Shown in pieces: positions 1-22,119 of a stretch of DNA of 64,000 nucleotides. A program made the position numbers and the translations under genes. Position 1 is the first letter of the stretch, and the number at the start of each line of letters is the position of its first letter. The notes under the pieces are model-generated. The model had not been told where the DNA came from, searched no databases, and saw only the letters and a program-made list of their open reading frames with translations. Source of the DNA: an uncultured Candidatus Binatia bacterium (GTDB lineage Bacteria > Desulfobacterota > Binatia > DP-6); assembly GCA_964618895.1 (NCBI GenBank), contig CAZUDO010000100.1:1044-65043 (forward strand), written 5' to 3'.

Positions 1-126
1 AGGCCATATCCGGACTCATGTAGGGAGGTATGCTGTGCGTGGATCGGTCAACCATGCGTGACAAGCACTGACTGCTGTCTAGGCGATAATAACTCTTGCA
101 TCGACGGGATCTGTGTATTCTTTTAG
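1..126 (+). CDS. 3' end of a small cysteine-rich (knottin-like) peptide ORF; the start lies upstream of the window
   Basis: Frame 1 is open from nt 1 to TAG at 124-126. Translation is RPYPDSCREVCCAWIGQPCVTSTDCCLGDNNSCIDGICVFF, with 8 Cys in 41 aa. Spacing C-x6-C-x5-CC-x6-C-x4-C matches the inhibitor-cystine-knot framework. The other two frames are closed. GC here is about 50% versus about 70% for the window. Confidence 0.4.
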   Translation, partial: RPYPDSCREVCCAWIGQPCVTSTDCCLGDNNSCIDGICVFF

Positions 127-127
127 T

Positions 128-151
128 CGGGGCGCACGGGAGCCCCGGGAG
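128..151 (+). other. GC-rich hairpin just after the peptide stop codon (CGGGGC-gcacggga-GCCCCG); no T-tract follows
   Basis: 6-bp inverted repeat seen directly in the sequence. Position is consistent with an mRNA 3' end structure. Confidence 0.3.
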
Positions 152-649
152 GAGTCGGCGGCTCGCCGGCCGCCTGGGGCCCCCACCGCGTGCAAGGGTG
201 GAAGGTCTTCCAGGTGCAGCCAGACCGCGTGTTCCAGAGCGGATTCCTCCCCCGGCGGTGTCCGAATTCTCCCAAATCTTGGACAGAGAACCCGTTTTGC
301 CGCGCGCTAACCCTTGAAAATCACGACGGTCGGAAAACGGATTCGGACTTTTTGTCCGCATCCGCACGATTCGGCCACCGACATCTTCGCGGCTCGCACC
401 GTCGCGCATGTCGCCTTCCGTGCATACCAGCGACAAAAGATGACGCCGAAGGCCAGAATATCCAGCTACTTGGATGGGCCGCGGCGATGGAAGGCGACGT
501 TTTGTCGCGATCCTTGGTCAACTGCGACAGCAGCGCCGGGTCGCGCGCCGGCTTCTGACGCGCTGCGGTAGCGGGTGACGGCCCTGTTCGGGGTGCGCTC
601 CGACCGCCGACCGCCCGCGGGCCGCGAGCCGTACGCGACGAACGCGTGC

Positions 650-2284
650 CTACAACCCGTCGCACACGGCGGGGAATGATTCGCCCAGGCCGACGACGGG
701 CAGCACGGAACACGCGCTCCGATAGACCCCAGCCACCAAGCGGGCTGCCCCGGCGGCATGGCGGCCCAGGACACAGCCGATCACCTCGTCCATGGTTGTC
801 GCCGTGCCCGTACACCCGGTCTGGACATGGGACGGCGCAACACCAGTGCACTTGGTCCCGATCCATGCCTCGGCATGGCGCCAGGCGTTCGACACCCGCG
901 ACGTAGGGTTCGTCCGGTCCAGGTCGTCGGTACACGCGGCCGTCGCTGCGGCAATCGGGTTTCCCGCTGCCACGTCGGTGAGCACGCGGTCGAGGCAGCG
1001 AGTGAGCAGCCGATGCGCCCGGTCCGCAAAGCGAAGCCCGCCGGCCGCGAGCGCGGCGTGGCATCGACGGGCGTCCGCTCGGAGCGTCGGGATACAGCCT
1101 GGAAGCGCCGTGTAGACGCATCCCCGTGCCGGATCGCAGGCGTCCTGGGTGCAGGCATCATGGTCGTCGCAGTCGATCGGCGTGCCCATGCAGACACCTT
1201 CCCGGCAGGTATCGCTGACCGTGCAGGCGCTCTCATCGTCACACGGTCCTGGGAGGCAGGCCGGGCCGATGAAGTTGCCGACGGCCCGCGCCCCGGAACC
1301 TAGCGCAATCGTCGTCCATACCCCGCCCGTCTCGCCGTCGATGACCGTAACGCGGTTCTGGGTCTGGCTGATCGCATACACCTTGGATGTGGAACAACGG
1401 TCCCCGCGCGCAGCGTTCGAGACGTAGCCCAACCCACCGGTTGCGTCGGCAGCAACCGTAGCCATGACACGTCCGGCGGGAATGTCCACGATGGATACCG
1501 GGCCGAGCCCAGTGTCTGGCCCGCTCAGATACGCGCGCGTTCCTGAGGGATTCCCCACCGCAGGCCACCAGAATCCAGGGACGCTCACAAATCGGCTCCA
1601 CGTGCTAGTTGCCACGTCAAGTTCACCCAGCGTCACAGAGAACGCTCCTCCGAAGTTTGATCCCATCGTGACGAAGATACTCCCCGATCGTGAGCCGGTA
1701 AGGAAGCCGATCGGTACGATGCTGATGGTCGCAGGCGACAGTCCCGTCACGAGCGTGTCGGTCGCCGTGTCGATCACGTAGATGCCGCTCCCCGCGGACA
1801 CATAGAGCCGAGTAGCGTCAGCGCTCGCCATCATCTCCCAGGGGGTTTGCCCAGAGACTGGGATGTCGGCGGCAACAGCGTAGGTGCGGGTGTCAATGAC
1901 TTGGACGCTGCCGCCATAGCGATGGACAACACCAACATAGAGCTTCGACGTACCGCGCGGCGCCGATAGAACAAACGGCCCACCCTGAACGGGGATGGTG
2001 GCAACCACGGTGTTACTGGCCGCATCGATCACTGAAACCGAGGCCGAGTTGTAATTCCCGATGTACACCGGCGATCCGTCAGGACTGATCGCTACCCCCA
2101 TCGGAGTGACGCCCACGGGCACGTCAGCAACGATCGTGTCCGTGTTCGTGTCGATGACCGAGACGGAGTTGGTGCTGCCGATCGGGACGTAGGCGAACGG
2201 CGCAGCGGTGGCCAGACGCGCGGCCAAGAGAAGGGATCCACAGGCGAGGACAAAACCAGCGCGCATTGTCCAGGTCGTCCTCAT
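650..2284 (-). CDS. Secreted YVTN-type beta-propeller repeat protein with a C-terminal Myxococcus-type cysteine-rich repeat region
   Basis: Signal peptide MRAGFVLACGSLLLAARLATA. Repeated SxVxVIDTxTxTVVATIPVGxxP-like blades (YVTN family). C-terminus CxDDxxCTxDxCxxGxC repeats. Uniform high GC3. Confidence 0.8.
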   Translation of the reverse strand: MRTTWTMRAGFVLACGSLLLAARLATAAPFAYVPIGSTNSVSVIDTNTDTIVADVPVGVTPMGVAISPDGSPVYIGNYNSASVSVIDAASNTVVATIPVQGGPFVLSAPRGTSKLYVGVVHRYGGSVQVIDTRTYAVAADIPVSGQTPWEMMASADATRLYVSAGSGIYVIDTATDTLVTGLSPATISIVPIGFLTGSRSGSIFVTMGSNFGGAFSVTLGELDVATSTWSRFVSVPGFWWPAVGNPSGTRAYLSGPDTGLGPVSIVDIPAGRVMATVAADATGGLGYVSNAARGDRCSTSKVYAISQTQNRVTVIDGETGGVWTTIALGSGARAVGNFIGPACLPGPCDDESACTVSDTCREGVCMGTPIDCDDHDACTQDACDPARGCVYTALPGCIPTLRADARRCHAALAAGGLRFADRAHRLLTRCLDRVLTDVAAGNPIAAATAACTDDLDRTNPTSRVSNAWRHAEAWIGTKCTGVAPSHVQTGCTGTATTMDEVIGCVLGRHAAGAARLVAGVYRSACSVLPVVGLGESFPAVCDGL

Positions 2285-2307
2285 CAGGAACTCCACACCG
2301 CCGAACA

Positions 2308-3063
2308 TTACGGTACCTCGACGTGGAACGGCGGAACCAGGCCCAACACCGAGAGATCAAACTCGACCCCGACCGCCGTAGACGGGAAGACGGAGCCGAA
2401 GTACGGTGCCGGCTCGCACCTGCTCGGGAACTCGAAGCTCGCCCTCCACGCAAGCGGAGGACGCGAGCTAACAGGCCCCTCAGGTATGTACGCGAACTGA
2501 CGGCAGGGCAGTGGGCCGATGGCGCCGGTACATCCCAATGGTCCCCACGTGACACGGGGACGTTTCACGAGCTGATCCTCCCCCATCGTTGTCACGAAGA
2601 CCGGGCCGGTGCAGTCCGGGGTTTCATACCAGAATCGCGTGTCCCAGGCGGGGTCGTTCGGGGCACGGGGATCAGTTTCCACCACGCCGGCGAAATATCC
2701 TCGTCCGTTAACCGTCATAAGTACGGACGCAGTCCCCAGGCGCCGCAAAATGGTGAATGGCTCAAGATTTCCGCTCAGTCGCACATCAACCACGACGCCA
2801 ACGAAGTATCCGTCGGAGTCCCGTATTATGGCGCCGGGGCCCGTTGCCCCGTCCCGCCCGGGCGGTCCCGCAGACCCCGACTCGCCCTTTGGACCTTGCA
2901 GCCCGAGCGCCACGGGATCGACGGGCGTCTCGTTCGTCTTGCACATTTCGCGCATGCGAATCAGGCCACTGCCGGTTCGGCCGGCACAGAGTACGGCAGA
3001 ACGCGCGGGTACTGCGCTGATCACAAAGACCGCGAACACCATCAACGACAATAGGGCCTTCAT
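2308..3063 (-). CDS. Secreted protein, VLC-ETPVD family paralogue 1, with a short collagen-like stalk
   Basis: Signal peptide ending ARS. Mature N-terminus AVLCAGRTGSGLIRMREMCKTNETPVDPVALGLQGPKGESGSAGPPGRDGATGPG (8 GXY triplets). 6 Cys. C-terminus FDLSVLGLVPPFHVE shared with paralogue 2. Confidence 0.7.
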   Translation of the reverse strand: MKALLSLMVFAVFVISAVPARSAVLCAGRTGSGLIRMREMCKTNETPVDPVALGLQGPKGESGSAGPPGRDGATGPGAIIRDSDGYFVGVVVDVRLSGNLEPFTILRRLGTASVLMTVNGRGYFAGVVETDPRAPNDPAWDTRFWYETPDCTGPVFVTTMGEDQLVKRPRVTWGPLGCTGAIGPLPCRQFAYIPEGPVSSRPPLAWRASFEFPSRCEPAPYFGSVFPSTAVGVEFDLSVLGLVPPFHVEVP

Positions 3064-3091
3064 CTGCTCTCCCTCATTTTCCCTCGCGGGG

Positions 3092-3814
3092 CTACAGCCC
3101 CTCGACGTGGAAGGGCGGCACGCCGAGTGTCGATAGATCGAAGGAGATTGCCGGGGCGGTCATCGGATAGGGTGCGGACTCGGGCGTGCATCTCCTACCG
3201 TCGAGTGACCCGGACGCTCGAAGGGGCCGCGGCGATCCGGGGCCATCGGGAAGCAACGCGAAACGTCGACAGACCACCGGCCCATCGCCGGTGCATCCTC
3301 GGGGGCCCCACTCCACAGCGGGTCGTTGCACGAACCGATCCCCGTCCCCCACAACCAGGTGGGGTAGACCGGTGCAGTCGCTGTCTTCAAACCAGAGGAC
3401 AGCCTCACGCCTGTCGGTCAGATTGGTCTCTGGCTGATCCCACGGGGGTACCCATCCGAAGTAGCCTGTCCGGTCGACCGTCAACAGAACGGGCGTCGGG
3501 CCGAGTGAGCGCAGAATGGTAAATCTGTCGCCGTGCTGAGCCTCCCACGGGTTTACATCGACCACCGCACCGATGACGGCACCTTGGGAATCGCGGACGA
3601 CGACGCCAGGGCCGGGGGCCCCGGGGATTCCCGGATCGCCCTTCGGCCCTTGCAGTCCGAGCGCAACGGGATCGACGGGCGTCTCGTTCGCGCGGCACGT
3701 ATCGCGTACGCGCACCGTCCCCGAGCCCGCTGCCCGCGTGCAAAGCACCGCCGCTTGCACGGGCGCCGCTCCCAACGCGACACCGACAACAACCGCCATG
3801 ATCCGACTGCCCAT
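3092..3814 (-). CDS. Secreted protein, VLC-ETPVD family paralogue 2, with a short collagen-like stalk
   Basis: Signal peptide ending VQA. AVLCTRAAGSGTVRVRDTCRANETPVDPVALGLQGPKGDPGIPGAPGPG. Colinear with paralogue 1 throughout (FTILRxLG, CTG, CRxFA, FDLSTLGVPPFHVE). Confidence 0.7.
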   Translation of the reverse strand: MGSRIMAVVVGVALGAAPVQAAVLCTRAAGSGTVRVRDTCRANETPVDPVALGLQGPKGDPGIPGAPGPGVVVRDSQGAVIGAVVDVNPWEAQHGDRFTILRSLGPTPVLLTVDRTGYFGWVPPWDQPETNLTDRREAVLWFEDSDCTGLPHLVVGDGDRFVQRPAVEWGPRGCTGDGPVVCRRFALLPDGPGSPRPLRASGSLDGRRCTPESAPYPMTAPAISFDLSTLGVPPFHVEGL

Positions 3815-3973
3815 CCCCCTGTGCCCCCCCGGCGCCGTGCGGCAGGTCTTGCGCGCAGCACGGCCCCATTATTGTTCATCGGCGCGGTTCTCGAAGACCT
3901 TGAGGCCACGCGGGAAGTACGCTCGCCAGCGTTCGGGCCGTTGGCCCGGCCCCGGCCTCTTGCGTAGAAACAG

Positions 3974-4837
3974 ATGCGCCCGCCACGGCGGCAACCGGGC
4001 AGGCGCGGAGGATCGAGCATGGCGAAACTACGCCGCGGTAAGCACGGGGCGCAAGCCCGGCGGGGATTCCGCGTCGCCTCCTGGGTGACGGAAGCGCTGA
4101 GCGAACTGGCGAAGACGCTGAACAGCCCATCACCCGCGACGCTCTCAAGCGCGGACGTGGAAGCGATTTGGGTCGGATGGGCGGAGACGCGCTCACGTCT
4201 CAACGCGCTCGCGACCGCAGGCCGGGCGATAGGGCTCGGGAGCCCGCGCCATCGATACGCGATCGATCCCCTGCGCCGCGTTCTGCGCCGGCTTGCCTGG
4301 CGCCCTGACCAGGCGAGATCGGCAACGGGCGCGTTGCCTGGCGTCGGCGTTGTGCTCATGCCGGAGGGAACCATCCGCGTCGGCACAACGGGCCCGAGCG
4401 TGGAGGATTCCGGGCTGTGGGTTGCGGTCGAGATACTCGACTACGCGGTGAAAACGGGTCGTCCGGGAGACGTACTCCGCCGGCTCCATCGTTGCACCAT
4501 GTGCGCCACCTTCTTCTTACGTAACCGCGGCAACGTGCGGCACGAGAAGGCCTTCTGTAGCACGAAGTGCGCCGACGCCTATCACGCTCGGCCGTCCGAG
4601 CGCGACCGGCGGCGGGCGCAGGTACACGACCGAGGCCAACGGCGGACGGCGCGACGTCGGGACGCCGCTCTCGCCTTGGGATTCGACGCGCCGCCGAACC
4701 GCTGCATTGATCCAGCCCTGCGGACCCCCGCCGGACTAAGCGCACGCGTTGCCGCCCTCGTGCGCAAAGGCCTGATCCTCGAGCGGGCCCAATGGATCGC
4801 CTCGCAGGAAGCTGAACGCCTTGAGATACGTCAGTAG
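3974..4837 (+). CDS. Hypothetical protein with a C-terminal four-cysteine zinc-ribbon (CGNR-like) motif
   Basis: 287-aa ORF with motif CTMCATFFLRNRGNVRHEKAFCSTKCADAYHAR. Lies at the probable left border of the integrative element. The coding call is only moderately supported because composition is Arg-rich. Confidence 0.4.
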   Translation: MRPPRRQPGRRGGSSMAKLRRGKHGAQARRGFRVASWVTEALSELAKTLNSPSPATLSSADVEAIWVGWAETRSRLNALATAGRAIGLGSPRHRYAIDPLRRVLRRLAWRPDQARSATGALPGVGVVLMPEGTIRVGTTGPSVEDSGLWVAVEILDYAVKTGRPGDVLRRLHRCTMCATFFLRNRGNVRHEKAFCSTKCADAYHARPSERDRRRAQVHDRGQRRTARRRDAALALGFDAPPNRCIDPALRTPAGLSARVAALVRKGLILERAQWIASQEAERLEIRQ

Positions 4838-4934
4838 ATAGGTACACAACGCACGCGTCGGTGATCGTTCGTTGCGCCACCGACGCGAGCACTTCACCGC
4901 GCGCGTCTCTTCACACCCTGCTACACCGAAGGGC

Positions 4935-5120
4935 ATGACCAGGCTCCTGACGGCAGTCGAGGCGGCTGCGGTGTTGCGCGTGAGCCTTCGGACGGTACGT
5001 CGACTCATCGCGGAACGGGCGGTGCCCGTGGTGCGCGTTGGCCGGCGGACGCTCTTCCGCGGGGACGCGCTCGAGCGTTTCGCTCGGCGGTGCGAGACGG
5101 TTGACCACCATGCACGCTGA
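4935..5120 (+). CDS. AlpA/excisionase-family helix-turn-helix DNA-binding protein
   Basis: MTRLLTAVEAAAVLRVSLRTVRRLIAERAVPVVRVGRRTLFRGDALERFARR matches the short phage AlpA/Xis HTH pattern. Stop overlaps the primase start by 11 nt. Confidence 0.65.
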   Translation: MTRLLTAVEAAAVLRVSLRTVRRLIAERAVPVVRVGRRTLFRGDALERFARRCETVDHHAR

Positions 5121-7884
5121 CGCGCGAGCGGCTCGCTCTGCCGTCCACGCCCCGGGGCAAGGCCGCGCCGCCCGGTGCCCGGCGGACCGCGAGGAGGTTC
5201 GCCGTACGCTGGCTCTGCTCGTCGAGCCGGGAAGCGTCGTCGAGCTGCGCATTCCCAAGACCGCCCGCGCTGGCACCGTCTCAGGGTACTTCGCCGACCT
5301 CGAGAAGCTCACGGCGGCGGCGGCGGAGTGGAGCGGGCGAGCACCGGGGATCTACGTGACCCTGAACCCGGTGAACGCGGACCTCCTCGCCCGTGCCGCA
5401 AACCATGTGCGCGAGCGCGCGGAAGACACCACGAGCGATCAGCACATCGGCGTCCGCCGATGGCTCCCGTTCGACTTGGACGCGGTGCGGGTGGGTGGCA
5501 TCTCCTCGACGGATGACGAGCACGCCGCCGCGCTCGAGCGGTCACGCCAGGTGGTCGCGTGGCTGATCGCCCGCGGCGTCGAGCCGGCCTCCATCGTCCT
5601 CGCCGACAGTGGGAACGGCGGGCACGTGCTCGTGCGGATCGACTTGCCGAACTGCGACCAAGCCCGCCAGCTCGTCGAGCGCTGCCTTGCCGCCGCCGCC
5701 TTCGCGCTCGACGATGAAGGGCTGAAGGTCGATCAGAAGGTCGCCAACGCGGCGCGCATCTGGAAGCTCTACGGCACGCTCGCCGCGAAGGGCGACGACA
5801 TGGCGAACCGCCCCCACCGGCTTGCCCGCCTGCTCGATGTGCCCGAAACGATCGTGCCAACCCGCCGGGAGGTGCTCGAGGCGATCGCCGCGCAGGCGCC
5901 AGCCGAGCCCCCCCGCATGGCCGCGGGCCGCGAGCCGCGTACTGGCACCTTCGACCTCACCGCGTGGGTCGCGGCGCATGCCCTGCCGGTCATGCGCTGC
6001 GGCCCGTGGAAAGACGGGACCCGGTGGATCCTGAACCCCTGTCCGTTCAACTCCGAGCACACGAACGCCGCCGCGTACATCGTGCAAATGGGGCATGGGG
6101 CGATCGCGGCGGGCTGTCACCACAGCTCATGTACATGGGGCTGGGCTGAGCTTCGGGAACACTATGACCCCGAGGACGAAAGCCCCCCCGGTGCGAGCGT
6201 GGATCCGGCGATCCCGACCAGCGACGCGATGCGCGGGGCTGGCGGCGCATCCCATGCCGCCCGCCTCGTCGAGCTGACTGCCGGGGCCGAGTTGTTCCAC
6301 TCCCTTGACATGGAGGCGTTCGCGACGATTGTCGTCGATGATCACGCTGAGACCTGGCCCTTGCGCTCGCGGAACTTTCGGCTCTGGCTGCAGCGAGAAT
6401 TTCACCGGACGACCCGGTCGATTCCGAGCACGCAGGCGACTCAGGATGCGTTGGGCATCCTGACCGGCCGCGCGCTCTTCGAGGGCGAGACACGCGCCGT
6501 GTTCGTGCGCGTCGCTGGCGGCCCGGATGACATCTATCTCGACTTGGGGGACGCCAGTTGGACAGCGGTCCACGTCACGGCCGCAGGATGGGAGCTGGTC
6601 AGGAACCCGCCCGTCAAGTTCCGCCGCGCTCGAGGGATGCTGCCGCTCCCCATGCCCGTGCCGGGCGGTTCGCTCGACGCACTCGCCCGGTACGCGAATG
6701 TCTGGGACGAAACGAGCTGGCGGCTGCTGGTGGCCTGGCTGATCGCCGCCTGCCGCCCTCGGGGACCCTACCCCGTGCTCATGATCCACGGGGACGCGGG
6801 TGCAGCCAAGAGTACGCTCGCGCGGCTGCTCCGCGCGCTGATCGACCCGAGCAGCGTGCCGCTACGTGCTGAGCCGCGCGACGTGCGCGACGTGATGATC
6901 ACCGCCACCAACGCCTGGGTGATTGCGTACGACAACCTGGACCACCTGCGGCCGTGGCTTTCGAATGCGCTCTGCCGGCTCGCGACCGGCGGGGGCTTCA
7001 GCACGCGCGAGCTGTACACCGACGCGGAAGAGGTGCTCTTCGAGGCGACCCGTCCCGTCATCATCAACGGGATCGAGGAGCTGGCCACGCGGAGCGACCT
7101 GCTGGACAGAGGACTACTCCTCGACCTGCGAGAGATACCCGACGAGCGGCGGCAGCCCGAGGAAGGGTTCTGGGCTGCGTTCGAGGATGAACGTCCGCGG
7201 CTCCTTGGTGCGCTGCTGGACGCGGTGAGCACCGCGCTACGCACCCTGCCCTCGGTCCGACTAGCTCGCCTGCCCCGCCTTGCGGACTTCGCCATCTGGA
7301 CCACTGCGGCAGAAGGTGGGCTCGGGTGGGCACCGGGCAGCTTCCTCCGCGTTTACGACGGGAACCGCGGTGCGGCACACGATATCACCCTGGACGCCTC
7401 GCCGGTTGCCGGCGTCGTGCGGGAGCTACTCGAGCAGCACTCGACCTGGTGCGGGACCGCGACCAACCTACTGAGCACGCTCGCCACCTTGGCGGGCGAG
7501 AGCGTGACGAAGCAACGCGACTGGCCGCGCAACGGCAAGGGGCTCGCTGGGGTGCTGCGCCGTCTCGCGTCCACCCTCCGGGCGGTCGGCATCGGCGTTG
7601 ACTTCGAGCGCGAGCCCGGCGGCCAGCGCCGCCGCCTGATTCGCCTCGAGAAGATGATGGGTCCCTACCGTCCCGATCGTCCCGAGACGGACGAATCCGT
7701 AGGCCCGGTGCGGGACGCACGGCGGGACGCAAACGGGACGCACGGGGACGCAGACCGGGACGGAGGCGCGGGCGAGCGGACCGGACATCCCTCCCCAGAA
7801 TCAAGGGGTGGGACGCACCGGGACGGTCGGGACGCAGAGGAACCCCACTCTTCGTCCCCGTACGACGTCGAGGTGTTTGAGTGA
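5110..7884 (+). CDS. Phage/plasmid primase-helicase: N-terminal AEP primase-polymerase domain, zinc-binding CPF..H motif, C-terminal SF3 (D5/P4-type) helicase
   Basis: LPFDLD (DxD) and SGNGGHVLV (sGxGxH) Prim-Pol motifs. NPCPFNSEHTNAAAYIV zinc motif. Walker A GDAGAAKST and Walker B VIAYDNLD. ATG at 5110. Confidence 0.8.
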   Translation: MHADARAARSAVHAPGQGRAARCPADREEVRRTLALLVEPGSVVELRIPKTARAGTVSGYFADLEKLTAAAAEWSGRAPGIYVTLNPVNADLLARAANHVRERAEDTTSDQHIGVRRWLPFDLDAVRVGGISSTDDEHAAALERSRQVVAWLIARGVEPASIVLADSGNGGHVLVRIDLPNCDQARQLVERCLAAAAFALDDEGLKVDQKVANAARIWKLYGTLAAKGDDMANRPHRLARLLDVPETIVPTRREVLEAIAAQAPAEPPRMAAGREPRTGTFDLTAWVAAHALPVMRCGPWKDGTRWILNPCPFNSEHTNAAAYIVQMGHGAIAAGCHHSSCTWGWAELREHYDPEDESPPGASVDPAIPTSDAMRGAGGASHAARLVELTAGAELFHSLDMEAFATIVVDDHAETWPLRSRNFRLWLQREFHRTTRSIPSTQATQDALGILTGRALFEGETRAVFVRVAGGPDDIYLDLGDASWTAVHVTAAGWELVRNPPVKFRRARGMLPLPMPVPGGSLDALARYANVWDETSWRLLVAWLIAACRPRGPYPVLMIHGDAGAAKSTLARLLRALIDPSSVPLRAEPRDVRDVMITATNAWVIAYDNLDHLRPWLSNALCRLATGGGFSTRELYTDAEEVLFEATRPVIINGIEELATRSDLLDRGLLLDLREIPDERRQPEEGFWAAFEDERPRLLGALLDAVSTALRTLPSVRLARLPRLADFAIWTTAAEGGLGWAPGSFLRVYDGNRGAAHDITLDASPVAGVVRELLEQHSTWCGTATNLLSTLATLAGESVTKQRDWPRNGKGLAGVLRRLASTLRAVGIGVDFEREPGGQRRRLIRLEKMMGPYRPDRPETDESVGPVRDARRDANGTHGDADRDGGAGERTGHPSPESRGGTHRDGRDAEEPHSSSPYDVEVFE

Positions 7885-8267
7885 CGCCCATAGCGCTCCT
7901 CACCGATTTGATCACCCGCGGGGCGACCCTCATGGCGGACGGCAATGCCATCCAGGTTCGGGCCCCGCGCGGGGTGCTCACCGACGCCGACCGGGTTGCG
8001 CTGGTCGCCCACAAGGCGGCGCTCCTTGGCCTTCTGGCAGACCTGGGCACCCTCGAGGCCGATCGCACCGCCGAACGCCTCCGTGCCCTCTGGAGCAATC
8101 TCTCCGACACCGAGCGCCAGCGGCTCCACGCCGAGGCGGTCGCAGGCGACACCTTGGCCGGCATCATCCTCGCCGCCATCACCGTCGATTCGCAGGTCGA
8201 TCGTCACGCAACCGGTGCCGTGCCTGAGCCACGCCCCAAGCGTGCCGACGGAACGGAGGAGGCGTGA
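7881..8267 (+). CDS. Hypothetical protein (element cargo), translationally coupled to the primase (GTGA overlap)
   Basis: GTG at 7881 overlaps the primase TGA. 128 aa, MTPIALLTDLITRGATLMADGNAIQVRAPRGVLTDADRVALVAHKAALLGLL... No recognisable domain. Confidence 0.4.
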   Translation: MTPIALLTDLITRGATLMADGNAIQVRAPRGVLTDADRVALVAHKAALLGLLADLGTLEADRTAERLRALWSNLSDTERQRLHAEAVAGDTLAGIILAAITVDSQVDRHATGAVPEPRPKRADGTEEA

Positions 8268-8554
8268 TAGCCCACCCGGAACGCGCAGTCAGCCGACCGC
8301 AGTGCGGAACGCCCACGCGGACCGCAGGGGGCTCAGGCGTGGTTCTGGAACGCGGCCGTGCCTCGTCGTTCAGGCCATGCGGCGCGTTCGGCGAGGCCGG
8401 CCTGCCCAATCAGGGGGTCCACCAGCGCGCCGACATGCCCACCTGCCCCGGGGAAGACGTCCTCAGCCATACACCCGTGCACGCGAGAGGCTACTATGGA
8501 TACCGTGGGCCAGCGCGGCCTCGTCGTCCCCTGGCTCACCATGGCGGCCGACGT

Positions 8555-8799
8555 TGATGAGCCGTCGGAGCACCCCTTTGCCCGGCGGCCTAGAGGAGCG
8601 CCTTCTCGATGTTCATGAGACGGCCGCAATGCTCCGGCTCAAGCCAGCCACGCTGTATCAGTGGGCGTATGAACGCCGCATCGCCGTGGTGAAGCCCTCC
8701 GGACTACGCGGACCCCTCCGCTTCCGCCTGAGCACGCTGCTCAAGCTGATCGAGGAGTGGGAACGGCCCGCGATCCGTCCGATACCTGACCGGACTTGA
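8555..8799 (+). CDS. Excisionase-like helix-turn-helix protein
   Basis: LLDVHETAAMLRLKPATLYQWAYERRIAVVKPSGLRGPLRFRLSTLLKLIEEWE matches the AlpA/Xis-type HTH pattern. Start codon choice (ATG 8555) is uncertain. Confidence 0.55.
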
Positions 8800-8834
8800 C
8801 GAAGAGATAATGGCTGCGTTACTAGCCTGGAACA

Positions 8835-9062
8835 GTGGACAGCCTGAAGCGCATCCGGAAGGCGAAGGGGTTGAGCTTGACCGAGGTTGCGAGCCGCACC
8901 GGACTCTTCCGCGAGGCAATCGCGCGGCTCGAGCGATCGGACACCGACCCGAGGGCCTCGAGCTTGCTGCTCCTCGCCCGAGCCTACCGGGTCCCGGTCT
9001 GCGAATTGTTCGATGAGGGAGGACATGACCACGGACGGCACCGAGCGCGACGACGGTCGTAA
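8835..9062 (+). CDS. XRE-family helix-turn-helix transcriptional regulator
   Basis: MDSLKRIRKAKGLSLTEVASRTGLFREAIARLERSDTDPRASSLLLLARAYRVPVCELF is a classic Cro/CI-type HTH. Sits immediately upstream of the integrase. Confidence 0.6.
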   Translation: MDSLKRIRKAKGLSLTEVASRTGLFREAIARLERSDTDPRASSLLLLARAYRVPVCELFDEGGHDHGRHRARRRS

Positions 9063-10242
9063 GCGCGGCGACCGCGGCATCTTCGAGCGTCCGAAGGGCT
9101 CGGGTGTCTGGTACGCGCGCTACCGTGACGAGCACGGTCGTTTGCACCGGGAGAAGGTCGGTCCGAAAGGGCTCGCGCTAAAGGTCTACCAGAAGCGGCG
9201 GACAGAGATCACCGAGCGCCGATTCTTCCCGGAACGCATCCGCCGGCCGGATATCCTGGTCAGCGTCGCCATCGACGACTACCTGGTCCGACTCAAGGGA
9301 AGGTCGCGCAGCTATCGCAACTGGGATCGCTGCGGCAAGGTCTGGAAGGCGGCTCTTGGCAACAAGACACTCCGCGAAGTGCTGCCCGGCGACATCGAAC
9401 GCTTTCGCGCACGGCGACGAGGTGAGGGCCTCGCACCGGCGAGCGTGAACCGGGAGCTGAGCTTCCTCCGAAGCGTCTTCAACGCCGCCATCGAGGATGA
9501 GAAGATCGAGAAGAATCCGGTCAGGTCGAAGTTCCTCTCCAAGGAGGCGAACCAGCACGTCCGTTATCTGACCCAGGAGGAGGAGGTCAGTCTCAGGGCA
9601 GCTATCGGCGAGGCTGAGTGGCCCAAGGTCGCGGTCGCCCTTCTTACCGGGCTTCGCCAAGGGAATCAGTTCCATCTCGCCTGGGCCGATGTTCACTTCG
9701 ATACCGGCATCATCCGTGCGCGCCAGTCGAAATCAGGCGAGGACTATTTCATCCCCATGAACGAGGAGCTGCGCGCTATCCTCCGCGCCCTGCCCTCGCG
9801 GCTACGTAGCGCCTGGGTCTTCCCGAGCGAAACCGGCGAGACACCCCTCGACGCGAAAAACCACCTGCATCGCGCCTTTCTTCCGGCGCTGCGTCGGGCC
9901 GGTGTACGTGACTTCCGCTGGCATGATCTGCGACACACGTTCGCTTCGAGGCTCGTGATGGCGGGGGTGGACATTCGCACGGTGCAGGAACTGCTAGGCC
10001 ACAAGACGCTCACGATGACAATGCGCTATGCGCACCTGTCGCCGGCTCACAAGCTCGAGGCCGTACAGCGCCTTTCGCTCGCGCCAAGTAGCACCACAGG
10101 TAGCACCGACGACGCATCCGTGAAGATCGCCGTAGAGGGCGGCGCCGAAGTACGCAACCTGCCACCCGAATTGAGTGAGCCGTGCCGGGATCGAACCGGC
10201 GACCCGCTGCTTAAAAGGCAGCTGCTCTACCAACTGAGCTAA
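9025..10242 (+). CDS. Tyrosine-type site-specific integrase; ORF has no stop until inside the tRNA-Lys gene
   Basis: C-terminal catalytic region HDLRHTFASRLVMAGVDIRTVQELLGHKTLTMTMRYAHL (R..HxxR..Y). N-terminal phage-integrase SAM-like region. 3' tail overlaps tRNA-Lys. Confidence 0.85.
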   Translation: MTTDGTERDDGRKRGDRGIFERPKGSGVWYARYRDEHGRLHREKVGPKGLALKVYQKRRTEITERRFFPERIRRPDILVSVAIDDYLVRLKGRSRSYRNWDRCGKVWKAALGNKTLREVLPGDIERFRARRRGEGLAPASVNRELSFLRSVFNAAIEDEKIEKNPVRSKFLSKEANQHVRYLTQEEEVSLRAAIGEAEWPKVAVALLTGLRQGNQFHLAWADVHFDTGIIRARQSKSGEDYFIPMNEELRAILRALPSRLRSAWVFPSETGETPLDAKNHLHRAFLPALRRAGVRDFRWHDLRHTFASRLVMAGVDIRTVQELLGHKTLTMTMRYAHLSPAHKLEAVQRLSLAPSSTTGSTDDASVKIAVEGGAEVRNLPPELSEPCRDRTGDPLLKRQLLYQLS

Positions 10243-10248
10243 CGGCTC
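10176..10248 (-). tRNA. tRNA-Lys (anticodon UUU)
   Basis: Manual fold: acceptor GAGCCGT/ACGGCTC, D arm GCTC-AGTTGGTA-GAGC, anticodon arm GCTGC-CTTTTAA-GCAGC, T arm GCCGG-TTCGATC-CCGGC, discriminator A. 73 nt; no encoded CCA. Confidence 0.9.
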
Positions 10249-12320: not shown

Positions 12321-13472
12321 TCATGGCGGTGGCGGTGTGTCGCGCTCATCGTCGAGACCCGTGCGCCGTTGGCCGCGCGTCCAGAAGTAGTTCCACGCGC
12401 CGTTGGCGTTCAGCGGGATCCCGGGCTCGAACGTCGCCGGCGTCCCGCCCGCATCACGATGCAGGCTCCAGCGCTCGTAGAATTTCGTCGTCGGGCAGTC
12501 CCAGCACGGGAGCCGTCGTGCGTCGGACGACCCCTGGCGGCGACGGAACAGGCCGCGGGCCGTGCGGTAGCGAGGATGGTTCCACGCCTCCTGGAAGCTC
12601 CGCGCGGAGACGACGGGTGCGAAGTCGTCGAATCCCTGAAATACTCCGCGACAGGGCGCCAGCATGCCGTCGACCGTGAGCACCGGCTGCCCCCACAGGA
12701 ACGGGCAGGGGTGAGGCGTGTGCGACAGGAACCACGGGGGCCAGCCATCCTGCCGTTCCCACGCCGGGTCGGGCACGGCACCACGCAACGCGAGCAGCCG
12801 CATGTCGAGCTCCGTCGCCAGCCGCTGCATGGCGTCGCCCTCGTCCGTGTTGCAGGGGAACTGGAGGAACTGCAGGGTCAGCCGCGGCAGGTCGGTCGCG
12901 AGCCGTGCCTTGGCGGCCGCCACGAGGCGGCAGTTCTCGATGACCTTCGCCAGGTCCCCGCCGACGCGGTAGCGCTCGTAGACGGCCTGCGTGGCGCCGT
13001 CGATGGAGACGAAGAGGTCCGTGAGGCCGCTCGCCACCAGCCGTTCGGCGTCATCGCTGGTGAACGGGATACTCAGATGGGTGTTCACGCGGGTGGCGAT
13101 GCCACGCGTGCTGGCGGCCGCGATGATCGCCGGCAGGTCGGGATGGAGCATCGCCTCGCCCCAATTGAAGACCTCGATCAGCAGCAGGTAGTCGCCGATC
13201 TCGTCGAGCAGGGTGAGGTAGGGCTCGAGCGGCATCATCCCCGGCCGCCGGCCGAAGCGTCCCGCCCCGGTGTGGCAATGCGGGCAGCGCAGGTTGCACA
13301 CGTTGGTCGGCTCGATGACGAGGCGCGTAGGCCGAGAGCGGAGGATCGGGCGCAGCCGTCGCAGCTCGTAGCGGTTCAGGTAGAGGTTCGCGAGCCGCCG
13401 CCAGGTGAGGCGGTAGCCGCTGATGTCATCGGGGAGTCGCAGAAAGTCGCGCAGCCCGGCCACCCCCGACAT
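12321..13472 (-). CDS. Radical SAM/SPASM-domain protein (paralogue A)
   Basis: CNLRCPHC (Cx3Cx2C). FNWGEAMLHP (GGE-like). C-terminal Cys-rich SPASM-like region CPFLWGQPVLTVDGMLAPC...CWDCP. Start ATG overlaps the stop of paralogue B (TGATG). Confidence 0.85.
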   Translation of the reverse strand: MSGVAGLRDFLRLPDDISGYRLTWRRLANLYLNRYELRRLRPILRSRPTRLVIEPTNVCNLRCPHCHTGAGRFGRRPGMMPLEPYLTLLDEIGDYLLLIEVFNWGEAMLHPDLPAIIAAASTRGIATRVNTHLSIPFTSDDAERLVASGLTDLFVSIDGATQAVYERYRVGGDLAKVIENCRLVAAAKARLATDLPRLTLQFLQFPCNTDEGDAMQRLATELDMRLLALRGAVPDPAWERQDGWPPWFLSHTPHPCPFLWGQPVLTVDGMLAPCRGVFQGFDDFAPVVSARSFQEAWNHPRYRTARGLFRRRQGSSDARRLPCWDCPTTKFYERWSLHRDAGGTPATFEPGIPLNANGAWNYFWTRGQRRTGLDDERDTPPPP

Positions 13473-15287: not shown

Positions 15288-15683
15288 TCACGGCGCCGCT
15301 GTCGCATCCAGTCGCCGCAGCCACTCGCGGGCACTCACCACCTGTGCCCCCAACCCGCGCACTCTCGCCTGCAGCGCGCGATCCGACGTGACCACGCGCA
15401 CGCCGGCGGGTGCCGGGTCGGACGCCACCAGCTCGACGATGCGGTCGTCGGCCGCGTTGGCCCCCGCGCGCACCGCATACACGACGCGCACGCCATCTTC
15501 CTCGCCGTCGGGGAGGTGAGGCGGCGGCCGGCCGTCGACCACGAGCGTCACCGGCTCGCGGGTGACGGCGACCAAGCGCCGGGTCGCGCCCAGCAGACGG
15601 CGCACGGCGGCGCCGCGATCGCGCCACCATCCGGTCGGACGCGATCCGATGACGTTCATCGCGTCGACGATCCACACCGTCAT
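15288..15683 (-). CDS. NYN-domain (YacP-like) predicted ribonuclease
   Basis: MTVWIVDAMNVIGSRPTGWW...LVVDG...VVYA...ADDRIVELV...VVTSDRAL. Acidic residues sit at the positions expected for a PIN/NYN fold. Confidence 0.7.
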   Translation of the reverse strand: MTVWIVDAMNVIGSRPTGWWRDRGAAVRRLLGATRRLVAVTREPVTLVVDGRPPPHLPDGEEDGVRVVYAVRAGANAADDRIVELVASDPAPAGVRVVTSDRALQARVRGLGAQVVSAREWLRRLDATAAP

Positions 15684-15948
15684 CGGGGACGGCCCAGCGT
15701 CATCCCGCAAGCGCCCGCAAAAGCGCCGCGGCCCGGCGCCGGGTGAGCCGGCATTCGGCACTCCGCATCATGACCCAACGGCTCCCACCCCGGAGAATTC
15801 CTCGTCCGCCGGCAAAACGCCAGCGGCCAGGCCCCACCCGGGGGGCGGGCCTCCCCGATCCGGGGGACGCTACCCAGTATTCTTGACGCCTTCGCGCGAA
15901 CGAGAGTACGACCAGCCCACCTCGCCCGCGACCCACAGGAGGTGCCGC

Positions 15949-21900: not shown

Positions 21901-22119
21901 CGTGCCCGCGCCTTCGACCTGCTCGCCGATCAACGCCTGGCGCTGGCCGACCTGTTCGAGGGCCGCGTCGCCAGCCTGCGGCCGTTCGTGCCCGCCTTCG
22001 ACGCGGCCGGCAACATCGACCGGACGCGGTTCCCCGATCCGCACTTCGGCGGGCTCCTGCCCGACATGACCCACGGCGAGCTGTCACGCCTAGTGAGCGG
22101 ACGATGCCGGCTCTTCTAG
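15949..22119 (+). CDS. Giant secreted TSP3 (calcium-binding aspartate repeat) protein with N-terminal Cys-rich repeats and a duplicated internal module
   Basis: TTG start 6 nt after AGGAGG. Signal peptide LRDIIVGRLFLALLLPGTFLAAPATVAASA. More than 30 DxDxDGxxDxxE repeats. Two homologous modules of roughly 400 aa, each ending in a VLHFASQ...IARRLVGL-type segment (see the 17530..20230 repeat feature). Helical C-terminus. Confidence 0.75.
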   Translation: MPPTLRDIIVGRLFLALLLPGTFLAAPATVAASATTRQCTTTCKAAQRTCQQVTKSRFATVRASCTGTAAQRRACKKAGKQRLARERTQCKSFRTTCTTCCQGSGDACDLQCGNFVVSSDEQCDDGNTTNADGCDANCTRTACGNGIVAGTEECDAGATNSDTAANACRRDCRRARCGDGALDTGEACDPPDGSSCSASCQPLCQPTAEVCDGRDNDCDGAIDEDLGTTACGVSDCRRTVATCQDGRPQACTPGAPRPELCDGRDNDCDGLVDEGLGAFCFVPDRDGDGLPNDYEEARPCLDPDEFDSTTDNDSDGLDSLDEYARGTEPCVRDTDGDGLPDGFEVETAANPLDPNDPCGAPALRMIDSDGDGLPDCEEPAAGTDPGLFDSDDDGLCDGEETIIYGTDPLDPDTDDDTVSDGGETRHGTDPRAQDTDGDGLNDGVERSLDFDPLDPSDGQADIDGDGLSNVDEVRAATDPYRADSDRDGLTDGEEVHTYRTLPTNPNTDGRGRNDGAEVLLDGTNPTDGRDDLPVAVLPRAIRDGGGFTWDVLTDGRILSSLPSGTQPLSPPFSGGLGLQIDGESFPFVTDAVTERLPGGSADGAFIRIGPARLSGLRVSRQVLVPRADAFARYLEILDNPGPSPVTARVTLVSGLNGIFTNNRFLVPGIVTTSDGDSTLDRTDDFVVTSTSPGGAFLLPAVVHAHSGPAAALEPSAAELAGRFRDRFFAAAYVVAEFEVTVPPGGRAIVLHFASQQDPRADALPIARRLVGLTGATLMGLTAEQRAQVVNFLANDADHDGLSDQSELARGTGPDDPDSDDDGLPDGFEVTHGFDPLRGGDAASDPDGDGLDTSQELARGTDPRRADTDGDGLDDGTEARAGSNPRSRDGDGDGIDDPDELARGTDPTRADSDGDGLSDGDEDTTGTDPLRPDTDGDGLSDSVEVTAQLDPRDPSDATADPDRDGLTSADEIARRTDPFHPDSDRDGLTDGEEVRTHRTNPRIADSDSGGRLDGEEVLVDRTNPTDPTTPDRPFLSPLLEFFDADDRGWFVDGDGSVAFTEGGTLGGGGVLEVNGERFPRRQTAIAELSGTSSLSGAFIGPAFMSGVRVSRHLFLPEEDTFLRYLEVLDNPGTGDRVVTLTIRNGATFRGPITVVATSSGDDHLDADDDFVVAHDLFNGPQAVIAYTFSGPFAPVEPTAAVLDPAEPDVITYSFDVTVPAGRRVIVLHFASQHRTRAAALAGAARLRALRGQALANLTAPERADIVNFLPFPDGDGDGLTDVDEAGRGTRPDDPDTDDDGLGDGYEVAYGFDPRRPGDGTADADGDGLDNASEQAARTDPRRADTDQDGLTDGNEVRVHRTDPRRADTDGDGLDDGDEVGTTATDPLQVDSDGDGLGDGDEVARGSIPTRPDSDDDGIPDGPDNCSRVANPDQADADADGGGDACQPAIAIRHVDQGNGATIDVDAVLTDPNGDALRGTATIRSSTAITLSSLTGYRDVLEPGRFIERRGGRGLLRSSVTGGAADFSFACGSCDAPDEDFQDDFRRICGGSNSQLEGRDVCVRSRATEALFSLHFLAWASGGGDPAASYVRLTPTAGPVSFTGTMLPASLDISGLVSGATHRLDLDVTDGSSLPVRAQVPFRRTTETALRFVTFPDTDGDGLVDPVETGTGVFVDREDTGTQPTVRDSDGDGLDDGEELRLRSDPTRSDTDGDGIDDGREAELLRCLAFLRAGNLRGAASRCAAAAVDADNPEANLLAALTGLAVGALEAPNLIPLLDAVGVRAVGSLAAICALRPTRPGALPAGIRTGPAQDAVRADVLPLVDAALTHLNRIPPGAVMHVALDDLPPCVRLAGMAPVEIDAADVSALGAALQAAAAAAQLAAAYRVDVDLADIVSRRRTPREVFSGNPSLLTLLPGGTTELSQARLRLAAALRALLAAIDGIAAETDDQQNDLLVIAAADRSAVATLRLAADNLLRALNGQGLFRARAFDLLADQRLALADLFEGRVASLRPFVPAFDAAGNIDRTRFPDPHFGGLLPDMTHGELSRLVSGRCRLF
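17530..20230 (+). repeat. Intragenic tandem duplication (two units of about 1.2-1.5 kb) inside the giant TSP3 protein gene
   Basis: Protein segments GGGFTWDVL...VLHFASQQDPRADALPIARRLVGL...LTAEQRAQVVNFL and DRGWFVDGDG...VLHFASQHRTRAAALAGAARLRAL...LTAPERADIVNFL are colinear. The flanking TSP3 stretches are also colinear. Confidence 0.5.

What the first reader, a model, noticed from the sequence alone, without database searches (positions are those of the whole stretch)
1..126. Low-GC ORF tail encoding a knottin-like peptide with eight cysteines
The only open frame over nt 1-126 encodes ...SCREVCCAWIGQPCVTSTDCCLGDNNSCIDGICVFF-stop. The last six cysteines have spacing C-x6-C-x5-CC-x6-C-x4-C, which is the inhibitor-cystine-knot (knottin, omega-conotoxin-like) framework. 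Two further cysteines lie upstream. The segment is about 50% GC in a window that is about 70% GC, so it is compositionally foreign. A hairpin follows it immediately. A disulfide-rich secreted peptide, possibly toxin-, inhibitor- or bacteriocin-like, at the head of a cluster of secreted proteins and radical SAM enzymes would be unusual for a bacterium. Only the C-terminus is visible.
Basis: partly seen in the sequence, partly recalled or inferred. Interest (0 to 1): 0.65.

Follow-up and report, generated by a model that had tools for sequence, protein, structure and literature searches.

The report
Cysteine-rich tail of secreted modular protein
The "knottin-like peptide" is the last 41 residues of a 296-residue secreted, 33-cysteine bacterial protein carried on an integrated mobile island; its cysteine spacing would fit a knottin, but no evidence shows that fold and the tail has no relatives anywhere.

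Summary
The sequence observation holds. Window 1-123 reads ...SCREVCCAWIGQPCVTSTDCCLGDNNSCIDGICVFF, followed by a stop codon. It has eight Cys, and the last six are spaced C-x6-C-x5-CC-x6-C-x4-C. At 50% GC it is the lowest-GC 126-nt stretch in the 64 kb window.

It is not a small peptide. A public contig that runs 931 nt past the window start shows an 891-nt gene (P0001, 296 aa). The gene has a Shine-Dalgarno site and encodes:
- a Sec-type signal peptide
- a confidently predicted helical N-domain
- a poly-Thr linker
- three 6-Cys modules of the form PxCxGxCPxGxxC...CxC
- this tail

About ten weak metagenomic homologues share the architecture, but none has the tail. A search of 1.84 billion representative proteins found only the protein itself. 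No Pfam knottin family matches. The best PDB sequence and fold hits are spider knottins, but they are not significant (E = 0.2 and E = 5). The spacing alone arises in 3-11% of shuffles.

The low-GC block covers the last ~120 codons, not only the tail. The gene is cargo on an island bounded by an integrase and tRNA-Lys. The radical SAM gene lies outside that island.

Verdict: a real, orphan, disulfide-rich C-terminal module. A knottin fold is possible but unproven. Interest is modest.

The parts
1..126 (+). Last 41 codons plus TAG stop of an 891-nt gene (P0001, 296 aa). The first 765 nt of the gene lie upstream of the window, at window coordinates -764..0 (L001 10970..10207 minus strand; L002 167..931).
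   Evidence: The window overlaps L001 over 10,205 nt with 0 mismatches. The gene is 100% identical in three Logan assemblies and is also recorded from an NCBI contig of 66,182 nt.
34..114 (+). Six-Cys core of the tail (P0001 C267-C293): C-AWIGQP-C-VTSTD-CC-LGDNNS-C-IDGI-C. The framework is compatible with an inhibitor cystine knot. A beta-hairpin carrying the last two Cys is predicted around the D-G turn.
   Evidence: Spacing. AF2 hairpin at tail residues 31-34/37-40 and at P0001 286-289/292-295, with pLDDT 75-79 in the full-length model. No homologue. No Pfam family.
19..33 (+). Two further Cys (P0001 C262, C266) in a low-confidence linker (PYPDSCREVC). They probably belong to the preceding degenerate third 6-Cys module rather than to the tail unit.
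   Evidence: pLDDT is below 50 for residues 257-266. The module profile aligns only to AGVCPAGTVC of module 3 and not to the tail.
127..190 (+). GC-rich inverted repeats just after the stop codon. A possible stem-loop, statistically unremarkable.
   Evidence: z = -0.89 versus shuffles. (no terminator called on the + strand).
344..358 (-). Terminator-like hairpin with a T-run, downstream of the convergent 552-aa gene.
650..2308 (-). Convergent neighbour: a secreted YVTN beta-propeller protein with a Cys-rich Dicty_CTDC repeat. Island cargo.
2308..3814 (-). Two paralogous secreted proteins (251 and 240 aa), each with a short collagen-like Gly-X-Y run. Island cargo.
8557..10242 (+). Excisionase-like HTH_17 gene (8557-8799) and tyrosine integrase (ORF 8887-10242). 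These are the mobility genes of the island that carries P0001.
   Evidence: phrog_1 integrase, E = 2.7e-72.
10175..10248 (-). tRNA-Lys(UUU), abutting and overlapped by the integrase ORF. Likely the integration site and right-hand boundary of the island.
   Evidence: GC3 is 0.72-0.84 for genes to its left and about 0.9 for most genes to its right.

Best explanation
Window 1-126 is the 3' end of a complete 891-nt gene for a 296-residue exported protein. It is not a small peptide gene.

Shown:
- An ATG preceded by AAGGAG.
- An N-terminal hydrophobic signal-like sequence ending ALA|VGSQ.
- A confidently predicted helical N-domain (residues ~30-109, three long helices).
- A ~35-residue poly-Thr linker.
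- Three small modules with the conserved pattern PxCxGxCPxGxxC(x8-20)CxC.
- A 30-residue, 6-Cys terminal unit.
- The same signal peptide / helical domain / poly-Thr / 6-Cys-module architecture in a handful of unannotated metagenomic proteins, one of them from a 'Deltaproteobacteria bacterium' MAG.
- The terminal unit is unique to this protein.
- The gene sits among other secreted-protein genes on an integrase/excisionase island next to tRNA-Lys.
- Its last ~120 codons (modules 2-3 and the tail) have GC3 of about 0.55, against 0.86 for the first 175 codons.

Inferred:
- The protein is exported by Sec and oxidatively folded outside the cytoplasm.
- The Thr-rich linker acts as an extended spacer.
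- The Cys modules form a rigid disulfide-locked stalk.
- The tail is a compact disulfide-locked end-cap or binding knob that stays attached to the protein. I give roughly 35% that it has true knottin topology.
- The 3' third of the gene was grafted on by recombination with a lower-GC relative, so the gene is a mosaic.

The biochemical target is unknown. A binding, adhesive or inhibitor role outside the cell is the most economical guess.
For: - Gene structure and full protein.
- Identical DNA in three independent assemblies, plus an NCBI record.
- Family architecture and module alignment with six invariant Cys.
- Module 3 core matches the module profile and the tail does not.
- AF2 full-length model: N-domain pLDDT about 90-96, tail 75-79, linker 257-266 below 50.
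- Tail orphan status: (self hit plus three spurious repeat proteins).
- GC3 change point after codon 175, exactly between modules 1 and 2: 0.857 vs 0.545, Fisher p = 5e-9, 0 of 2000 permutations as strong.
- Modules 1 and 2 are still 76% identical over 41 nt at the DNA level.
- Lowest-GC stretch in the window.
- Island context.
- Source lineage: the window's PrkA is at least 90% identical to proteins named 'MAG... [Deltaproteobacteria bacterium]'.
Against: - No function is demonstrated for any family member. Genomic contexts of three homologues share nothing.
- The protein has 33 Cys, an odd number, so at least one is unpaired or forms an intermolecular bond. Module and tail boundaries are therefore uncertain.
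- The signal peptide was judged by eye only.
- The tail model is of low to moderate confidence (pLDDT 61 alone, 75-79 in context). Disulfide connectivity could not be read from the models.
- No sequence variation is available, so purifying selection on the tail could not be tested.
- The donor of the low-GC block was not found.
Confidence: 0.8

Rival explanations
1. The tail is a genuine inhibitor-cystine-knot (knottin) domain with I-IV, II-V, III-VI disulfides. It sits at the C-terminus of a secreted multidomain protein, as was predicted for HoHP-ICKD of Haliangium ochraceum. It would act as a stable binding or inhibitor knob.
For: - Framework C-x6-C-x5-CC-x6-C-x4-C. From my own knowledge of omega-conotoxin MVIIA (not tested here), loops 1 and 3 and the final x4 loop match it.
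- The top PDB sequence hits for the 41-mer are spider ICK peptides (E = 0.2-0.35).
- The top Foldseek hit of the tail model is spider ICK 2ll1 (TM 0.45/0.53).
- A hairpin carrying CysV and CysVI is predicted.
- There is precedent for bacterial C-terminal ICK domains (PMC3694633, PMC5753296).
Against: - None of the hits is significant.
- The spider hits disappear when only the 32-aa core is used as the query.
- There is no Pfam knottin or toxin family match.
- There is no similarity to KrICK, HoICK-D or maurocalcine.
- The classical consensus is not met in loop 4, and the spacing arises by chance in 3-11% of shuffles.
- Connectivity was not determined.
Confidence: 0.35
2. The tail is a strongly diverged or rearranged extra copy of the family's own 6-Cys module, or part of an enlarged third module. 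It would be a generic disulfide-rich cap whose knottin-like spacing is coincidental.
For: - It follows three such modules directly.
- Module 3 lacks the usual terminal CxC and runs into the tail.
- Family members end in varied Cys-rich C-termini.
- The spacing is not rare by chance in such Cys-rich sequence (11%).
Against: - The profile-profile comparison aligns the module only to AGVCPAGTVC of module 3 and not to the tail.
- CC doublets and the PxCxGxCP signature are mutually exclusive here.
- The AF2 full-length model treats residues 267-296 as a separate, better-ordered unit.
Confidence: 0.3
3. The protein is a precursor, and the tail is cleaved off to give a free toxin-, inhibitor- or bacteriocin-like knottin peptide.
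For: - The C-terminal position resembles conotoxin and spider-toxin prepropeptides.
- The product is secreted.
- A flexible, low-confidence segment precedes the tail.
Against: - A 230-residue, 27-Cys, multidomain 'pro-region' conserved as a family in its own right is not a propeptide.
- There is no dibasic or other evident processing site before the tail.
- No adjacent protease, immunity or transporter genes were found among the neighbours examined.
- There are no homologous peptides anywhere.
Confidence: 0.06
4. The tail is an evolutionary accident: a recently recombined or read-through 3' extension of foreign, low-GC DNA that is translated but has no selected fold or function.
For: - It is the lowest-GC stretch in the window.
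- There is an intragenic GC3 break.
- Codons atypical for a 69% GC genome are used: AGG, GTA, CTA, AAT, TTT.
- It is a singleton with no homologue.
Against: - A 121-codon stop-free frame at about 55% GC is unlikely by chance, by my own rough estimate (not run with a tool).
- The low-GC block also contains bona fide family modules.
- 6 to 8 regularly spaced Cys plus a D-G hairpin turn look designed.
- The other two forward frames are closed.
Confidence: 0.1
5. It is a RiPP precursor matured by the radical SAM enzyme(s) in the window.
For: A radical SAM gene exists at 12321-13472.
Against: - The product is a 296-aa Sec-exported multidomain protein.
- The radical SAM gene is 12 kb away, on the other side of the integrase/tRNA-Lys boundary, in DNA of different composition.
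Confidence: 0.01

Closest known systems
HoHP-ICKD, the predicted C-terminal ICK domain of a multidomain secreted protein (YP_003267557) of the myxobacterium Haliangium ochraceum, and KrICK of Ktedonobacter racemifer (Gao et al. 2013, PMC3694633)
   Same: Both are bacterial and belong to a secreted multidomain protein. Both have a low-complexity hinge followed by a ~30-residue 6-Cys unit at the extreme C-terminus. Both share the C-x6-C-x4/5-(D)CC first half. In both cases the knottin fold rests only on prediction.
   Different: The second half of the framework differs: x6, x4 here against x3, x8-10 there. BLASTP finds no significant similarity. The carrier protein differs: a helical domain plus 6-Cys modules here, against peptidase S8 / I9 / PA domains there.
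Animal inhibitor-cystine-knot toxins (omega-conotoxins; spider toxins such as U3-SYTX-Sth1h 5fzw and U1-TRTX-Sp1a 2ll1)
   Same: The six-Cys C-C-CC-C-C framework with a DCC motif. A predicted C-terminal beta-hairpin carries the last two Cys. These toxins are the best, though non-significant, sequence and fold matches.
   Different: Those are free 25-40-residue peptides cut from short prepropeptides. This unit is the end of a 296-aa protein with no evident cleavage site. E-values are 0.2 and 5. No Pfam toxin family matches. The CIV-CV loop is longer than the classical consensus allows.
Unnamed metagenomic family P0002-P0012 (signal peptide, helical N-domain, poly-Thr linker, repeated PxCxGxCPxGxxC...CxC modules; one member annotated 'MAG: hypothetical protein [Deltaproteobacteria bacterium]')
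   Same: The whole architecture up to residue ~255, and the six invariant Cys of the modules.
   Different: None of them carries the CC-containing tail. Similarity is weak (E = 5.6e-6 to 0.7, 27-50% identity over partial lengths). P0001's N-domain has extra Cys.
Thr/Ser/Pro-linker plus small disulfide-rich C-terminal binding module, as in fungal cellulases with CBM1 (analogy recalled from general knowledge, not tested here)
   Same: A long hydroxy-amino-acid linker leads to a ~30-residue disulfide-stabilised terminal module bearing aromatic residues (W, F, F, Y).
   Different: No sequence or profile similarity was found. The Cys number and spacing differ. There is no catalytic domain upstream.

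Membership tests
Inhibitor cystine knot (knottin) fold | Six Cys in a C-C-CC-C-C (or C-C-C-C-C-C) framework with loop lengths in the family range | tested here: inconclusive
   C-x6-C-x5-CC-x6-C-x4-C is present. It fits a loose CC-type pattern but not the classical CX3-7CX3-6CX0-5CX1-4CX4-13C consensus, because loop 4 has 6 residues. The loose pattern arises in 3.4% of tail shuffles and 11% of shuffles of the 121-aa segment.
Inhibitor cystine knot (knottin) fold | Disulfide connectivity I-IV, II-V, III-VI, with the third bridge threading the ring | not testable with these tools
   Model coordinates are not returned by the prediction tool. This needs MS disulfide mapping or NMR/X-ray.
Inhibitor cystine knot (knottin) fold | Significant structural similarity to a solved knottin | tested here: inconclusive
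Inhibitor cystine knot (knottin) fold | Match to a curated knottin or toxin sequence family (Pfam) | tested here: not met
   Zero Pfam families for the 41-mer at E <= 1. Only two irrelevant hits at E of 3 or more for the whole protein. Zero NCBIfam families.
Calcin-like bacterial ICK peptides (KrICK / HoHP-ICKD, PMC3694633) | Sequence similarity to scorpion calcins and the framework C-x5-6-C-x4-5-CC-x3-C-x8-10-C | tested here: not met
   BLASTP of the tail against KrICK, HoICK-D and maurocalcine gives no in-register alignment (best E = 0.095-0.21 on out-of-register fragments, none for MCa). The second-half loops are x6/x4 rather than x3/x8-10.
Free secreted peptide toxin or bacteriocin precursor | Short prepropeptide (signal, short pro-region, single mature peptide), usually with a processing site and dedicated neighbouring genes | tested here: not met
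   It is a 296-aa multidomain protein. No processing motif is seen. The neighbours are other secreted proteins and island mobility genes.
RiPP precursor with radical SAM maturase | Small leader-core precursor encoded next to its maturase | tested here: not met
   The radical SAM gene is at 12321-13472, beyond tRNA-Lys at 10175-10248 and the integrase. The product carries a Sec signal and is 296 aa.
Unnamed signal peptide / helical domain / poly-Thr / 6-Cys-module family (P0002-P0012) | Signal peptide, helical N-domain, poly-Thr linker, and at least one PxCxGxCPxGxxC(x8-20)CxC module with six invariant Cys | tested here: met
   phmmer hits at E = 5.6e-6 to 1.3e-4 for P0002-P0007. Alignments A1 and A2. 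Modules 1 and 2 are canonical, and the module 3 core matches the profile.
Diversity-generating retroelement target (variable C-terminal region followed by a GC-rich element and hairpin) | A template repeat about 80-90% identical to the 3' end of the gene, and a reverse transcriptase gene nearby | tested here: not met
   No second copy of the 3' 570 nt exists anywhere in the window plus the 931 nt upstream. No RT domain was found among the island and window proteins scanned. Sequence further upstream was not available.

The most novel reading that the evidence does not exclude
The tail is a true cystine-knot domain from a sequence family never seen before. It was recently grafted, together with two flanking modules, onto a modular secreted protein by recombination with a lower-GC donor, and it is carried on a tRNA-Lys integrative island. 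That would be a bacterial example of knottin domain shuffling via mobile DNA, with the knob acting as a toxin-like or inhibitor-like binder against prey or competitors.
Probability: 0.1. Interest if true: 0.6.

Novelty: new member of a known kind. Interest (0 to 1): 0.3.

Why it matters
If the tail really is a knottin, it would add an experimentally tractable, sequence-novel example to the few bacterial knottin candidates. The KNOTTIN database paper notes that none of these has an experimental structure (PMC5753296). It would also show such a module being moved between bacterial surface or secreted proteins by recombination on a mobile island.

As it stands, the main value is corrective. The finding is not a free peptide, not a RiPP, and not linked to the radical SAM gene.

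Two by-products may be more useful than the tail itself:
- an unannotated family of secreted proteins built from a helical domain, a poly-Thr linker and a conserved 6-Cys module
- a sharp intragenic codon-composition break that marks a mosaic gene

Tried and rejected
- **Word-index homologue search with the 41-mer:** no candidates.
- **Degenerate DNA pattern for CCAWIGQPC in 185,579 species genomes:** 0 hits.
- **P0001 peptide patterns in genome contigs and metagenome contigs:** 74 and 95 pattern matches, none confirmed by tblastn.
All hits were TGY microsatellites, and none had a knottin-like non-repetitive peptide.
- **phmmer of the tail against 1.84 billion representatives:** only the self hit plus three repetitive artefacts.
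- **PDB sequence searches:** with the whole protein, the 32-aa core and the module profile, nothing was significant.
- **Paralogues in the window:** none for the tail, the module or the N-domain in the six-frame translation. The N-domain does not resemble the helical C-terminus of the neighbouring 552-aa protein.
- **DGR hypothesis:** no template repeat.
- **att repeat of tRNA-Lys at the left end of the island:** not found in the 931 nt available upstream or within window 1-10100.
- **Conserved gene neighbourhood of homologues P0002, P0004, P0006:** none.
- **Rfam:** only the three tRNAs.

Full report
**1. The observation**

Frame 1 of window 1-126 reads RPYPDSCREVCCAWIGQPCVTSTDCCLGDNNSCIDGICVFF followed by TAG.

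GC is 0.50 against 0.693 for the whole window. Of all 63,875 overlapping 126-nt stretches, this one has the lowest GC. Only start positions 1-8 fall at or below 0.52.

Two details are wrong or overstated:
- One antisense frame is also open. It is part of a 151-codon ORF with no codon-position GC signature, so it is not a gene.
- The 'hairpin' after the stop is a GC-rich stem-loop that folds no better than shuffled sequence (z = -0.89). It has no T-tract.

The spacing itself is weak evidence. A CC-type knottin-compatible spacing appears in 3.4% of shuffles of the 41-mer and in 11% of shuffles of the 121-residue Cys-rich C-terminal segment. The classical ICK consensus is not met, because the CIV-CV loop has six residues.

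**2. What lies upstream**

The window starts inside the gene. I looked up the neighbouring 251-aa protein (window 2308-3063, minus strand) in public assemblies. This returned Logan contig SRR9952630_8952 (L001, 11,136 nt). It matches the window over 10,205 nt with no mismatch and runs 931 nt past the window start.

On that contig a called gene of 296 codons ends exactly at window position 126. It has an ATG five bases after AAGGAG. The same gene, 100% identical with its flanks, occurs in two further sequencing runs. It is also on record from an NCBI contig of 66,182 nt, presumably the source of the window.

**3. Anatomy of the protein (P0001)**

| Residues | Feature | Evidence |
|---|---|---|
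| 1-26 | MRTLVTMMSLGVALLVSDITAGTALA, a Sec-type signal peptide | Judged by eye |
| ~30-109 | Three long helices, pLDDT about 90-96, with seven Cys | |
| ~104-139 | Almost pure Thr linker | |
| 142-170, 178-218, 225-~262 | Three modules related to the consensus PCGxxxxPxCxGxCPxGxxC(x8-20)CxC, with six invariant Cys | |
| 257-266 | Low-confidence linker | |
| 267-296 | Six-Cys tail, pLDDT 75-79, with a beta-hairpin (286-289/292-295) around a D-G turn | |

- Modules 1 and 2 are still 76% identical over 41 nt of DNA.
- Module 3 is degenerate. Its AGVCPAGTVC core matches the module profile (hhalign E = 4.7e-5), and nothing in the tail does.
- The protein has 33 Cys, all after the signal peptide. 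The number is odd, so one is unpaired or forms an intermolecular bond.

**4. Relatives**

The full protein finds about ten weak relatives in 5.8 billion clusters (E = 5.6e-6 to 0.7). All are unannotated, have no Pfam domain, and come from metagenomes or a 'Deltaproteobacteria bacterium' MAG. They share the signal peptide, helical domain, poly-Thr linker and 6-Cys modules, but none has the CC-containing tail.

The tail alone gave the following:
- No word-index candidate.
- Only the self hit plus three repetitive artefacts in an exhaustive phmmer search of 1.84 billion representatives.
- No match for CCAWIGQPC in 185,579 species genomes.
- No relatives of P0001 in genome or JGI metagenome contigs.

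The tail is therefore an orphan, and P0001 is a singleton at 90% identity.

**5. Is the tail a knottin?**

Evidence in favour is suggestive only:
- The best PDB sequence hits for the 41-mer are spider ICK peptides (5fzw and 5fzv, E = 0.2-0.35).
- The best Foldseek hit of the stand-alone AF2 model is the spider ICK U1-TRTX-Sp1a (2ll1, TM 0.45/0.53). However, E = 5.1 and the model has pLDDT 61.
- The predicted hairpin places the last two Cys on adjacent strands, as in knottins.

Evidence against:
- No Pfam or NCBIfam family matches.
- The spider hits vanish when only the 32-residue core is used as the query.
- The full-length model has no significant PDB neighbour.
- The spacing is not rare by chance.
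- Disulfide connectivity, the defining feature, could not be read because coordinates are not returned.

I put the probability of a true cystine knot at about one third.

**6. Context**

P0001 converges on a secreted YVTN beta-propeller protein with a Dicty_CTDC repeat (650-2308). That gene is followed by two paralogous secreted proteins with a short collagen-like run (2308-3814). Further along come:
- an HNH-like protein and a primase-like 927-aa protein, both weak assignments
- an HTH_17 excisionase-like gene (8557-8799)
- a tyrosine integrase (8887-10242, phrog_1 E = 2.7e-72)
- tRNA-Lys(UUU) at 10175-10248, which the integrase ORF abuts and overlaps

.

Genes left of the tRNA have GC3 of 0.72-0.84. 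Most genes to its right have about 0.9. P0001 is therefore cargo of an integrated island at least 11 kb long. Its left end was not found.

The right-hand part of the window is ordinary chromosome: Glu/Gln-tRNA synthetase, PrkA, SpoVR, a sigma-54 activator, DnaB and thiolase. PrkA is at least 90% identical to proteins labelled 'MAG... [Deltaproteobacteria bacterium]'.

The only radical SAM gene seen (12321-13472) lies outside the island, so there is no peptide-plus-maturase cluster.

**7. The compositional anomaly**

The low GC is not confined to the tail. A maximum-likelihood change point in third-position GC falls after codon 175, exactly between modules 1 and 2. GC3 is 0.857 before and 0.545 after (Fisher p = 5e-9; 0 of 2000 permutations as strong).

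Module 1 is equally Cys-rich but GC3-rich, so neither amino-acid composition nor 'slow codons for folding' explains the drop. Because the low-GC block includes family-type modules, the simplest reading is recombination with a lower-GC member of the same protein family. A eukaryotic toxin donor is a less economical explanation.

No template repeat exists in the window, so a diversity-generating retroelement is not the cause.

**8. Comparison with what is known**

- The KNOTTIN database paper states that knottin sequences occur in bacteria but have no experimental structure (PMC5753296).
- Gao et al. 2013 predicted two bacterial ICKs. One (HoHP-ICKD) is the C-terminal domain of a multidomain secreted protein of the myxobacterium Haliangium ochraceum, placed behind a Gly-rich hinge (PMC3694633).
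- The present case has the same layout: a secreted multidomain protein, a low-complexity hinge, and a C-terminal 6-Cys unit with a (D)CC motif.
- It shows no significant similarity to those sequences or to maurocalcine, and its second-half loop lengths differ.

**9. Verdict**

The feature is real, but the interpretation needs correcting. It is the terminal, disulfide-rich module of a 296-aa secreted modular protein on a mobile island. It is not a free knottin peptide, bacteriocin or RiPP. A knottin fold is possible but unproven.

The likely mode of action is inferred: an extracellular, disulfide-locked stalk with a terminal binding knob. The target is unknown.

Novelty is modest. At most this is a new, sequence-orphan member of the already proposed class of bacterial C-terminal knottin-like domains. 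Interest is 0.3.

Noticed in passing
window 8887-10248 (integrase ORF 8887-10242 +; tRNA-Lys(UUU) 10175-10248 -): A tyrosine integrase ORF runs into and overlaps a tRNA-Lys gene on the opposite strand. Together with an excisionase-like gene (8557-8799), this marks the right end of an integrated island that extends left past the window start. GC3 steps from 0.72-0.84 inside the island to about 0.9 outside it. No att direct repeat was found in the sequence available.
   Followed up: partly
L002 167-1057 (window -764..126); break after codon 175 (about window -240): There is a sharp intragenic codon-composition break, exactly at the boundary between Cys modules 1 and 2 of P0001. GC3 is 0.857 before and 0.545 after (p = 5e-9). 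This suggests a mosaic gene whose 3' third came from a lower-GC donor. The donor was not found.
   Followed up: partly
P0002-P0012 (metagenomic proteins); P0001 residues 142-218: This is an apparently unannotated protein family: signal peptide, conserved helical N-domain (C..K.KAAGKK...FTKAF...AKVDAF), poly-Thr linker, and 1-6 copies of a ~34-residue module PCGxxxxPxCxGxCPxGxxC(x8-20)CxC with six invariant Cys. It has no Pfam or NCBIfam model, no PDB relative, and no conserved gene neighbourhood.
   Followed up: partly
window 2308-3063 (-) and 3092-3814 (-): Two tandem paralogous secreted proteins (251 and 240 aa) share a conserved N-terminal 'AVLC...G.G..R.R..C..NE.PVDPVALGLQGPKG' region and a short collagen-like Gly-X-Y run. 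They give only weak hits to phage tail-fibre and collagen-like adhesin models. Function unknown.
   Followed up: no
window 650-2308 (-): A secreted 552-aa protein combines YVTN beta-propeller repeats (TIGR02276, E = 4.9e-28), a Dicty_CTDC Cys-rich repeat and a Cys-containing helical C-terminal region. It converges on P0001, and a T-tract terminator-like hairpin lies at 344-358 (-).
   Followed up: no
window 15562-22119 (+): A 2185-aa ORF contains bacterial thrombospondin type-3 repeats (TSP3_bac, E = 4.7e-60). It is a giant, probably calcium-binding, extracellular protein just outside the island.
   Followed up: no
It lies outside the island and its substrate is unknown. Its neighbours were not examined.
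   Followed up: no
window 42404-44635 (+) and 44709-46046 (+), 56454-60995 (-): Further large secreted-type proteins occur in the chromosomal part: one with DUF7450 repeats plus Dicty_CTDC, and two with NosD-like or right-handed beta-helix domains. The genome appears rich in Cys-repeat and beta-helix exoproteins.
   Followed up: no
L005-L124 (metagenome contigs): A DNA scan for seven in-frame TGY codons at the tail's spacing is swamped by TGY/TGC microsatellites that translate as poly-Cys. A Cys-framework-only DNA pattern is not a usable way to look for knottins in metagenomes.
   Followed up: yes
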